DNA from: a virus
Length of the DNA: 64,000 nucleotides
Reading direction: 5' to 3' (one strand)
Virus record (IMG/VR): IMGVR_UViG_3300035491_000271
Location: 820 to 64,819 of that record
The position numbers and the translations under genes are program-made. The notes beneath the pieces were generated by a model. That model saw nothing but the letters and a program-made list of their open reading frames with translations. It did not search any database and was not told the DNA's origin. Positions within the stretch are counted from its first letter, which is position 1. Each line of letters opens with the position of its first letter. Shown in pieces: positions 22,170 to 22,865 of this stretch.

Positions 22170-22865
22170 TTATAGGCGGGGAGTTCTCGGTAGCCTGTCT
22201 TAAGTGCCGACGGGGAAGGCACGACAGGAACGGGTGTAGATGGGCCCTCTACCGGACCTCCCCTGTTCTGGACGTTGTGGACGGGAACCGAAACCCGTTC
22301 TTCCTCAGCAGTGCTTTCACCACTATGCGGGCGGCTAACTCAGATGCATTGTCCAAGTAACCTTGCTGAGGCGTTCGTACGTAAACTACCACAACGAACT
22401 GGGTTGGGGAATTGCCCAGTAACGCTCACGTCACCCTAGACGACTACTTGACTGTCAGGGCGTGGACACCAGGTACAATTCCCCAAACTGGGAGGAAGGG
22501 TCGGGGCTTAGGCAGTGATACCTGGGGGGAGGGTTCCTTGCCGGGCTGCTGAAGGCCCTGCAACTCACTACCCTTACCCCGACCCTTCCAAACAGAGCGG
22601 GAGAGTCGTCCGACTGGTCAAGGGGACCAATCCAGCACCAGTCATCCGACCGCCGTGACGAAATCGGTGGACGACCCTCCCTAACTGAGACAAGTAGTCG
22701 GAGTCGAACCGACTGGATACGATGTATCCACAGCTACCACCCTTCCTGACCCGATGCCGACAATATGGCTCCAGGAAGCTAAGGCCGAATCTCACGGCGA
22801 GCACGGTTAAGCTGTACTTGAATTTGAAGCGATTACCGTGACGGCACACGACCGGTAATCGAAAC
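22170..22865 (-). ncRNA. Candidate large, highly structured ncRNA of unknown family
   Basis: ORF-poor intergenic region with at least ten helices of 6-25 bp. G-U pairs form only on the minus strand. Includes a TTCGACT T-loop hairpin. See findings. Confidence 0.75.

What the first reader, a model, noticed from the sequence alone, without database searches (positions are those of the whole stretch)
22170..22865. Probable novel ~700 nt ornate non-coding RNA
This is the largest intergenic gap in a gene-dense window, has no credible ORF, and is saturated with helices. Plus-strand coordinates: 22831-38/22853-60 (8 bp); a four-way junction within 22691-22820; a 13 bp stem GGGAGGGTCGTCC/GGACGACTCTCCC enclosing a 7 bp GACTGGT/ACCAGTC helix (~22600-22681); a ~25 bp hairpin 22494-22589 with a 13 bp perfect core; 22404-14/22476-86 (11 bp); 22273-80/22389-96 (8 bp) enclosing 22313-20/22364-71 (8 bp); plus small hairpins near 22200-22300. 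At least five stem positions are G-U on the minus strand but would be A-C on the plus strand, which indicates selection on an RNA of the minus strand. Overlapping CCCAGT/ACTGGG pairings suggest pseudoknots or alternative folds. Its size and ornateness recall GOLLD/ROOL-class phage RNAs, but I do not recognise it as any known family, nor as RNase P, tmRNA or a group I/II intron.
Basis: partly seen in the sequence, partly recalled or inferred. Interest (0 to 1): 0.9.

Follow-up and report, generated by a model that had tools for sequence, protein, structure and literature searches.

The report
Modular structured RNA before sponge gene
The gap holds a real, conserved, heavily folded non-coding RNA of a nucleus-forming jumbo phage, not in Rfam, built from interchangeable modules that sit in front of a gene for an anti-immunity "sponge" protein; what it does is unknown.

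Summary
The helices are real. Homologous RNA occurs at the same place in 19 related jumbo-phage contigs, including the cultured Pseudomonas phage pPa_SNUABM_DT01, and compensatory base changes support the folds. For the 3' domain, 23 of 28 pairs change on both sides, against 0 of 500 shuffles. Rfam 15, ARAGORN and BLAST recognise nothing in the window.

It is not one fixed 700-nt molecule. It is a mosaic of modules (M2-M8, minus strand) whose number varies between relatives, so the gap ranges from 0 to about 835 nt.

The widely conserved unit is M8, a 96-nt three-way junction (22171-22267). In all but one M8-bearing locus examined it ends within about 35 nt of the start codon of the next gene, nearly always a Sequestin-domain (anti-Thoeris sponge) fusion.

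The locus lies downstream of a phiKZ-type middle-promoter motif (23516-23489). No terminator or promoter separates M8 from the sponge gene.

Other modules include a tRNA-like four-way junction with a T-loop (M3). Relatives carry an anticodon-less tRNA-like gene or a true tRNA-Gly in the same slot.

Best reading: a long modular leader or processed RNA array of the sponge operon. A trans-acting ornate RNA is not excluded. It is a novel family with no known function.

The parts
23489..23516 (-). Promoter-like motif AAAAATTACC-N14-TATG. It matches the published phiKZ middle-promoter element (AAanTTACc centred near -24) plus TATG, with the final G as the start site.
   Evidence: Sequence. Motif scan. 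Consensus from PMC4666361. The same motif lies directly after the phosphatase-like gene in the homologs read.
23453..23489 (-). M0: 5' hairpin at the predicted transcript start. In homologs it is joined directly to the RNA modules.
   Evidence: 13 pairs, 4 of them with compensatory changes among 5 homologs.
22882..23400 (-). 172-aa ORF (PHROG 2586, function unknown). It was found only in this phage among the loci read, and it splits M0 from M2-M8.
   Evidence: It is absent from L003, L007, L008, L277 and L279, where M0 continues straight into the RNA.
22828..22862 (-). M2: hairpin, a truncated form of a 63-nt branched hairpin in the homologs.
   Evidence: 23 pairs, 7 with compensatory changes.
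22690..22820 (-). M3: tRNA-like four-way junction. It has an acceptor-like stem, a large branched arm, a 6-bp hairpin with a 3-nt loop, and a T-arm with loop UUCGACU.
   Evidence: Folds. Weak tRNA-Sec-like alignment of the acceptor and T-arm (20.9 bits, E 0.29). It is 97-98.5% identical across 5 contigs, so it offers no covariation.
22598..22682 (-). M4: 13-bp closing stem enclosing two hairpins, with conserved loop motifs UCACGG and UUGGUCNCCUU.
   Evidence: 29 pairs, 6 changed on both sides, 94.1% paired against 32-56% when slid.
22494..22592 (-). M5: long branched hairpin. Conserved unpaired motifs are CAGC, CA-N-GGAAC and CCCCAGG.
   Evidence: 8 sequences including L083 and L286, 15 of 32 pairs changed on both sides, 0 of 500 shuffles reach this.
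22399..22493 (-). M6: domain closed by an 11-bp helix. The closing helix is kept with different sequences in L007, L277 and L008.
   Evidence: The MAFFT alignment is not structural here, and the tool consensus was poor.
22270..22398 (-). M7: multi-branched domain closed by an 8-bp helix.
   Evidence: 9 of 32 pairs changed on both sides, 92.7% paired against 37-53% when slid.
22171..22267 (-). M8: 96-nt three-way junction. P1 and P2 stack, and there are two hairpins with conserved loops (YAUCUA and CCCGUC). It is flanked by ACA on the 5' side and GCCUA on the 3' side. This is the conserved core of the family.
   Evidence: Covariance model R1 finds 18 copies in other loci and the window. It occurs once per genome. 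Independent single-sequence folds agree.
22154..22160 (-). Shine-Dalgarno AAGGAAG of the downstream gene, 10 nt after the M8 model match ends.
21728..22153 (-). 141-aa sponge-type fusion. The N-terminal domain (PHROG 872) is fused elsewhere to Tad2. The C-terminal domain is Sequestin (PF21825).
   Evidence: Sequestin function is from bioRxiv 10.1101/2025.07.12.664507. The architecture matches the 147-aa Acb4-Sequestin of phage Ab09.
23522..24034 (-). Conserved upstream neighbour: a phosphatase-like protein with a CGEGRxRS (Cys-X5-Arg) motif.
   Evidence: Alignment A3. One source names a homolog 'predicted protein tyrosine phosphatase', and the DT01 annotation agrees.

Best explanation
The gap encodes, on the minus strand, a conserved and heavily structured non-coding RNA segment. 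It is the long modular leader of a phage middle-class transcription unit; in this phage it is an intercistronic stretch.

Proposed order of the transcript:
- Transcription starts at the G of TATG at 23489, downstream of a phiKZ-type middle-promoter element (inferred from motif identity).
- It runs through the 5' hairpin M0, then an ORF inserted only in this phage, then modules M2-M8.
- It continues, without a terminator, into the gene for an Acb4-like/Sequestin nucleotide-sponge fusion.

M8, the 96-nt three-way junction, is the core. It is necessarily part of the sponge mRNA precursor, because only 18-33 nt separate its closing stem from the start codon. I infer that it acts in cis, as a 5' stabiliser or as the binding site of a protein or ligand that sets sponge expression.

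The upstream modules are accessory and exchangeable. The tRNA-like ones are M3 here, an anticodon-less tRNA-like gene in two relatives, and a true tRNA-Gly in another. I infer they are cut by tRNA-processing enzymes (RNase P/Z type). That would trim the leader and could release stable structured RNAs.

Shown: the structure, its conservation, the modularity, the genomic context and the family's absence from Rfam. Inferred: the transcription start, co-transcription, processing and the cis function.
For: Structure:
- Covariation in M8, M5, M4 and M7 and in M0, M2 and M6.

Strand:
- The genes are co-directional.
- The promoter motif and the T-loop read on the minus strand.
- The tRNA-like element of L003 and L008 scores as tRNA on that strand.
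- G.U cells outnumber A.C cells 88 to 16, and alifold energy is lower on that strand in all four modules tested.

Promoter:
- AAAAATTACC-N14-TATG equals the phiKZ middle-promoter consensus.
- It is conserved at the 5' edge of the locus in the homologs read.
- The phage is phiKZ-like: it has chimallin and a split RNA polymerase.

Co-transcription:
- There is no terminator-like site on the minus strand within 22154-22881.
- M8's closing stem ends 18-33 nt from the start codon in 11 of 12 distinct sequences.

Link to the sponge gene:
- The next gene carries PF21825 in every M8 locus except L011 and L286; this rests on Pfam for most loci and on tblastn similarity to the sponge genes for L292, L293 and L296.
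- In L301 the phosphatase-like gene is missing, but M8 plus the sponge gene stay together.

Modularity:
-.
- tRNA-Gly occupies the same slot in L285.
Against: - M8 folds on its own and does not sequester the Shine-Dalgarno sequence. The probability that the SD is unpaired ranges from 0.22 to 0.67 with no pattern. No expression platform is visible.
- In L286, M8 lies about 190 nt from the next gene, which has no PF21825. In L011 the next gene is a 53-aa ORF with no family.
- Every locus comes from one phage clade, so the synteny is not independent evidence.
- Modules M4-M7, about 400 nt with covariation, are more than a simple leader seems to need.
- Relatives with no gap at all still carry the sponge gene (L283, L284, L289).
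- No transcript data exist.
Confidence: 0.5

Rival explanations
1. It is a trans-acting large ornate RNA, or several RNAs released from the precursor, in the manner of GOLLD or ROOL. It could be a scaffold or multimeric particle, or an RNA decoy that belongs to the anti-defence island. Its position before the sponge gene would then be only inherited synteny.
For: - About 600 nt of modules beyond M8 carry covariation and conserved unpaired motifs.
- tRNA-like elements and real tRNAs are adjacent or embedded, as I recall being reported for GOLLD and ROOL.
- M8 is uncoupled from the next gene in L286.
- M8 does not touch the SD.
- The neighbours are anti-defence-type genes: a DarG-like macro domain and sponge domains.
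Against: - No terminator or 3'-end signal precedes the sponge gene.
- The module set is highly variable, down to M8 alone or nothing.
- There is no match to any large-RNA model in Rfam.
- The family is confined to one phage clade.
Confidence: 0.3
2. M8 is a riboswitch-type aptamer. It would sense a small molecule, for instance a nucleotide immune signal, and tune expression of the sponge.
For: - It is a three-way junction whose strictly conserved nucleotides lie in loops and junction strands.
- It sits in the 5' leader of a gene whose product binds 3'cADPR.
Against: - No alternative pairing with the SD was found.
- No terminator was found.
- There is no match to any riboswitch model.
- No ligand test is possible with these tools.
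Confidence: 0.08
3. It is a decaying tRNA-gene array or other neutral filler, or a DNA-level element such as a recombination hotspot, an origin or a packaging site, rather than a functional RNA.
For: - The slot holds a true tRNA in L285 and tRNA-derived elements in L003 and L008.
- Gene content at the slot is variable, and an ORF is inserted in this phage.
Against: - Compensatory changes keep the helices across sequences that are only 41-76% identical in those modules.
- G.U pairs outnumber A.C pairs.
- Loop motifs are conserved.
- M8 is a single copy per genome at a fixed position.
Confidence: 0.07
4. The region encodes one or more small proteins.
For: A 91-aa GTG ORF (22574-22849, minus strand) and several ORFs of 35-54 aa exist.
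Against: - No ORF keeps its frame and extent across the window, L007 and L008.
- The 91-aa ORF lies mostly in M3, which L007 and L008 lack.
- Translated similarity appears in many frames on both strands, as expected of conserved non-coding DNA.
Confidence: 0.02

Closest known systems
GOLLD and ROOL large ornate RNAs of phages and prophages
   Same: - Phage-borne and several hundred nucleotides long, with many helices.
- tRNAs lie next to or inside the locus.
- The function is unknown.
   Different: - No hit to any Rfam model, even at E up to 10.
- The length is not conserved: 0 to about 835 nt.
- It is not a free-standing gene.
- The conserved core is only 96 nt.
- Multimer formation is untested.
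tRNA-like processing modules embedded in longer transcripts (MALAT1/mascRNA type, and the stable RNAs of the T4 tRNA cluster). This comparison is from my own knowledge.
   Same: - An acceptor-plus-T-arm stack without a usable anticodon loop, embedded in a longer RNA. M3 is here; M1 is in L003 and L008 with a covarying 7-bp acceptor stem.
- A real tRNA occupies the same slot in a relative.
   Different: - Cleavage by RNase P or Z is not shown.
- M3 replaces the D-arm with a 75-nt branched domain.
- The tRNA model does not recognise M3.
Three-way-junction riboswitch aptamers and other structured 5' leaders
   Same: - M8 is a compact three-way junction.
- Its conserved nucleotides lie in loops and junction strands.
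- It sits just upstream of a ribosome-binding site.
   Different: - No expression platform is visible.
- No ligand is known.
- No family match was found.
- The two conserved loops are not complementary to each other.
Bacterial Y RNAs (YrlA), which are modular RNAs with a tRNA-like domain, also found in phages (PMC4201824)
   Same: A modular RNA that includes a T-loop-bearing tRNA mimic.
   Different: - No Ro/TROVE protein occurs in any of five related genomes, and the positive controls worked.
- No Rfam Y RNA hit was found.
- The topology is opposite: here the acceptor-like stem opens to the flanks, not the anticodon stem.

Membership tests
GOLLD / ROOL / OLE / HEARO / raiA (large structured RNAs held in Rfam) | A match to the family's covariance model | tested here: not met
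   cmscan of the whole window at gathering score gave 0 hits. The region at E up to 10 gave only chance miRNA, snoRNA and tRNA-Sec fragments. Six homologous loci at E up to 0.1 gave only tRNA hits.
GOLLD / ROOL / OLE / HEARO / raiA (large structured RNAs held in Rfam) | One large architecture conserved as a whole across members | tested here: not met
   The module content varies from M8 alone to eight or more modules, and some relatives have no gap at all.
GOLLD / ROOL / OLE / HEARO / raiA (large structured RNAs held in Rfam) | Homo-oligomeric RNA-only assembly | not testable with these tools
   This needs native gels or cryo-EM.
tRNA | A cloverleaf with a 7-nt anticodon loop, recognised by tRNA finders | tested here: not met
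   ARAGORN finds none in the window, and there is no Rfam tRNA hit there. M3 has a T-arm and an acceptor-like stem, but a 3-nt loop in the anticodon position and a 75-nt arm in place of the D-arm. The separate element M1 in L003 and L008 does reach the tRNA threshold, yet has no anticodon.
tmRNA | A tRNA-like domain plus a tag reading frame, found by ARAGORN or Rfam | tested here: not met
Group I / group II intron | It interrupts a gene, and the intron core is recognised | tested here: not met
   Both flanking ORFs match their PHROG profiles almost end to end. No intron model hit was found.
Y RNA (YrlA) / Ro RNP | A Ro (TROVE) partner encoded nearby, and a Ro-binding stem | tested here: not met
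   PF05731 is absent from G000 and four related genomes, three of them at least 94% complete. The control genomes were positive.
Riboswitch | A conserved aptamer with covariation | tested here: met
   In M8, 23 of 28 pairs change on both sides, and nucleotides in the loops and junction strands are invariant.
Riboswitch | An expression platform: an alternative pairing with the SD, or a terminator | tested here: not met
   There is no consistent SD pairing and no terminator.
Riboswitch | Specific ligand binding | not testable with these tools
   This needs in-line probing or ITC.
phiKZ-type middle promoter | AAanTTACc centred near -24, with the transcript start at the G of TATG in some members | tested here: met
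   AAAAATTACC-N14-TATG lies at 23516-23489, to be compared with PMC4666361. Promoter activity itself is not tested.

The most novel reading that the evidence does not exclude
The locus is an RNA component of a phage anti-defence island. Either M8 is a sensor, riboswitch-like or protein-bound, that couples sponge production to the host's immune signalling state. Or the exchangeable modules, including the anticodon-less tRNA mimics and the near-identical M3 cassette that appears to move between phages, are RNA decoys or scaffolds that act against host defences or in the biology of the phage nucleus.
Probability: 0.12. Interest if true: 0.9.

Novelty: new variant of a known kind. Interest (0 to 1): 0.66.

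Why it matters
- Structured RNAs of nucleus-forming jumbo phages are almost unexplored. I found no paper describing this element, and GenBank leaves it unannotated in the one cultured carrier.
- It is directly attached to an experimentally validated class of immune-evasion genes, the Sequestin sponges. If it controls or assists them, it would add an RNA layer to phage counter-defence.
- Its modular build, with tRNA-derived parts and a cassette that is nearly identical in otherwise diverged phages, gives a tractable case of how large phage RNAs are assembled.
- A cultured Pseudomonas aeruginosa phage carries the core, so the questions can be tested at the bench.

Tried and rejected
- BLASTN of the region against 50,697 phage records found no match. 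The DT01 version matches only itself.
- The first exact-pattern scan of viral contigs was too loose and mostly returned chance hits.
- Exact-pattern scans of metagenome and genome contigs returned only chance matches in high-GC coding DNA; none passed the nhmmer screen. The pattern was later seen to be too strict for many true members, which have GACAGGGG or CCCGTCC variants.
- A search through the phosphatase-like protein alignment in viral contigs added no new contigs.
- MAFFT alignments of M8 and M6 were not structural. M8 was rescued with a covariance model. M6 is argued only from per-sequence helices.
- Folding energy does not discriminate the strands. A fair two-strand alifold comparison favours the minus strand only modestly, by 1.3-5.8 kcal/mol per module.
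- My first idea of a local P2 hairpin in M8 was replaced by the P1-P2 stack plus two hairpins, which all single-sequence folds share.
- SD sequestration by the C-rich M8 loop was not borne out.
- The intron, tmRNA, RNase P and Y RNA readings were rejected.
- GGA-motif or RsmA-sponge idea: GGA motifs are present in several loops, but at about chance density, and the idea was not tested.
- The N-terminal domain of the downstream protein did not reach the Pfam Acb4 model. I call it Acb4-like only by its architecture.

Full report
**Setting**

The window is part of a 91.6-kb IMG/VR virus record. It encodes a chimallin, a split RNA-polymerase beta-like subunit and a divergent family-B DNA polymerase, so the phage is a phiKZ-like, nucleus-forming jumbo phage. 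The nearest isolate is Pseudomonas phage pPa_SNUABM_DT01; its baseplate-hub-like protein is 66.5% identical to the window's 533-aa protein.

The finding, 22154-22881, lies between two minus-strand genes:
- 22882-23400: 172 aa, PHROG 2586.
- 21728-22153: 141 aa.

There are two small coordinate errors: the inner 8-bp helix is at 22303-10, not 22313-20, and the 11-bp helix is shifted by one.

The 728 nt fold to -297 kcal/mol, z = -5.4 against dinucleotide shuffles. The plus strand does as well (z = -5.7), so energy alone settles nothing.

Nothing known matches:
- Rfam 15 gives no hit at gathering score for the whole window.
- At E up to 10, the region gives only chance fragments.
- ARAGORN finds no tRNA or tmRNA.
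- BLASTN against phage records finds nothing.

**Homologs**

I followed the flanking proteins and conserved RNA motifs to find the same intergenic RNA at the same place in other contigs:
- IMG/VR jumbo-phage contigs of 164-277 kb: L003/L006, L007, L008, L083, L292, L293, L296, L301 and L011.
- Logan, JGI, ENA and NCBI assemblies reached through homologs of the upstream phosphatase-like protein: L277-L282 and L286-L288.
- The cultured phage DT01 (L291), where GenBank annotates nothing at that place.

A covariance model of the 3' domain, built from six sequences, recovers 18 copies, including eight loci not in the seed at E of 1e-6 or lower. L278 carries a further copy identical to L277's. M8 occurs exactly once per genome.

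**Anatomy**

Alignment of the full-length versions shows a mosaic of independently folding modules.

| Module | Window coordinates (minus strand) | What it is |
|---|---|---|
| M0 | 23453-23489 | 5' hairpin |
| M2 | 22828-22862 | hairpin, truncated here |
| M3 | 22690-22820 | tRNA-like four-way junction with T-loop UUCGACU |
| M4 | 22598-22682 | 13-bp stem enclosing two hairpins |
| M5 | 22494-22592 | long branched hairpin |
| M6 | 22399-22493 | domain closed by an 11-bp helix |
| M7 | 22270-22398 | multi-branched domain |
| M8 | 22171-22267 | 96-nt three-way junction |

The module content differs between relatives:
- L007 and L008 lack M3.
- L003 and L008 have an extra tRNA-like gene (M1). 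It reaches the Rfam tRNA threshold at 41-42 bits but has no anticodon loop.
- L007 duplicates the apex of M5.
- L083 has only M5 plus M8, in 272 nt.
- L281, L282 and L301 have only M8, in about 174 nt.
- DT01 has a reduced M4-like hairpin plus M8.
- L286 and L290 carry other modules.
- L285 has a genuine tRNA-Gly(UCC) in the slot.
- L283, L284 and L289 have no gap at all.

So the ~700 nt is one realisation of a variable array, not one fixed molecule.

**Structure is under selection**

| Module | Distinct sequences | Cells paired | Same, partners slid 1-3 columns | Pairs changed on both sides |
|---|---|---|---|---|
| M8 | 12 | 93.8% (68% in shuffles) | 41-49% | 23 of 28 (0 of 500 shuffles as high) |
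| M5 | 8 | 94.1% | 39-54% | 15 of 32 |
| M4 | 7 | 94.1% | 32-56% | 6 of 29 |
| M7 | 6 | 92.7% | 37-53% | 9 of 32 |

- Single-sequence folds of 11 M8 homologs converge independently on the same architecture.
- M0, M2 and M6 show 4, 7 and 10 compensatory pairs in my own count.
- M3 cannot be tested this way because its copies are nearly identical.
- The alignments hold few, related sequences. These numbers are strong for M8 and M5 and moderate for the rest.

**Strand**

The minus strand is the RNA strand. Several lines agree:
- The flanking genes run that way.
- The promoter motif reads on that strand.
- The T-loop and the tRNA-like M1 read on that strand.
- G.U cells outnumber A.C cells 88 to 16 in the four tool-checked modules.
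- When each strand is given its own best consensus fold, the minus strand is still lower in energy in all four modules, though only by 1.3-5.8 kcal/mol.

**Transcription context**

Directly after the stop codon of the conserved phosphatase-like gene (23522-24034) lies AAAAATTACC, then 14 nt, then TATG (23516-23489). The published phiKZ middle-promoter element is AAanTTACc centred near -24, and some such promoters carry TATG with its G as the start site (PMC4666361). The same arrangement heads the locus in the homologs I read.

In this phage alone, a 172-aa ORF is inserted between M0 and M2. It takes the place of M1 and part of M2.

Within 22154-22881 there is no terminator-like site on the minus strand and no convincing promoter. 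M8's closing stem ends 18-33 nt before the start codon in 11 of 12 distinct sequences. That leaves no room for a separate promoter, so the mRNA of the downstream gene must be made through M8.

**The downstream gene**

- Its C-terminus is PF21825. That family is now named Sequestin and has been shown to sequester 3'cADPR and block type I Thoeris (bioRxiv 10.1101/2025.07.12.664507).
- Its N-terminal domain (PHROG 872) is fused to a Tad2-like domain in L004.
- Its size and layout match the 147-aa Acb4-Sequestin of Pseudomonas phage Ab09. The Pfam Acb4 model itself did not hit.
- Nearby is a DarG-like macro-domain protein.

The RNA therefore sits in an anti-defence-type neighbourhood. The gene after M8 carries PF21825 in all M8 loci except L011 and L286. 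In L301 the upstream phosphatase-like gene is gone, but M8 and the sponge gene remain adjacent.

**Mechanism**

Best reading (confidence about 0.5): a long modular leader of the sponge operon.
- M8 would be a cis-acting element, either a 5' stabiliser or a binding site for a factor that sets expression.
- The tRNA-like modules would serve as processing punctuation.

What speaks against a classical riboswitch is that M8 folds autonomously, never pairs consistently with the SD, and is not followed by a terminator.

What keeps a trans-acting ornate RNA alive (about 0.3):
- About 400 nt of extra covarying structure, with conserved single-stranded motifs.
- The L286 case, where M8 is about 190 nt from a non-sponge gene.
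- The resemblance to phage large RNAs that associate with tRNAs.

Less likely readings:
- Neutral tRNA debris or a DNA-level element, given the compensatory changes.
- Coding: no ORF is preserved across the window, L007 and L008.

**Comparison with known families**

It is not a member of any Rfam family. It is not a tRNA, tmRNA or intron. It is not a Y RNA: there is no Ro/TROVE gene in five related genomes, and the positive controls worked.

It resembles GOLLD and ROOL only in being a large, phage-borne, tRNA-associated RNA. It differs in being modular, of variable length and embedded in an operon.

I found no paper describing it.

**Verdict**

- This is a new structured-RNA family whose core is the M8 three-way junction, expanded in this phage into an ornate ~730-nt array.
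- Its function is unknown.
- It is testable in a cultured Pseudomonas phage.

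Noticed in passing
window 22690-22820 (minus); L003:3335-3465, L279:3591-3721, L280:855-985, L277:3591-3721: The tRNA-like cassette M3 is 97-98.5% identical between contigs whose neighbouring modules are only 41-88% identical. Only its 3-nt apical loop differs much (AUC, CCU, ACC, AUU). 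It is absent from L007 and L008, whose other modules are close to L277's. It looks like a recently transferred RNA cassette, or one under extreme constraint.
   Followed up: partly
window 22882-23400 (minus): A 172-aa ORF (PHROG 2586) is present only in this phage and is inserted inside the RNA locus between M0 and M2. By eye it has Walker-A-like (GKST) and Walker-B-like (ILVDD) motifs. It has no Pfam hit.
   Followed up: partly
L003:3187-3257 and L008:13750-13822: A tRNA-like gene with a covarying 7-bp acceptor stem and normal D- and T-arms, but a 3-4-nt loop where the anticodon loop should be. Rfam tRNA scores it at 41-42 bits, and ARAGORN calls it 'tRNA-???'.
   Followed up: partly
L285:2972-3046: A relative carries a bona fide tRNA-Gly(UCC) in the very slot that holds the structured RNA elsewhere. 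tRNA-Asn and tRNA-Asp lie further downstream, as in DT01.
   Followed up: yes
window 21084-21110 (minus): A second copy of the phiKZ-middle-promoter-like motif (AAAAATAC...N...TATG) lies in the next intergenic gap, 21008-21165.
   Followed up: no
window 24151-24660 (minus): A macro-domain protein is most like the DarG antitoxin domain (PADLOC 1.6e-21; PHROG 335, 'phosphatase'). It is a candidate counter to ADP-ribosylating defences.
   Followed up: no
window 33976-36555 (minus): An 859-aa ORF carries a LAGLIDADG / Hom_end homing-endonuclease domain at residues 343-423. It may be an intein or an endonuclease insertion in a larger protein.
   Followed up: no
L291:10655-10678, L287:3081-3103, L288:3097-3121: In DT01-type relatives the Shine-Dalgarno GGA sits in the loop of a short hairpin (CGGUA-AGGAnC-UACCG) immediately before AUG. 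From my own knowledge this resembles RsmA/CsrA binding sites. It is untested.
   Followed up: no
L286:919-1754 and L290:2951-3431: These two relatives share further structured-looking modules that are not present in the window, for example a segment around GCAGAAACA...CUUACGG...AACCGUACG.
   Followed up: no
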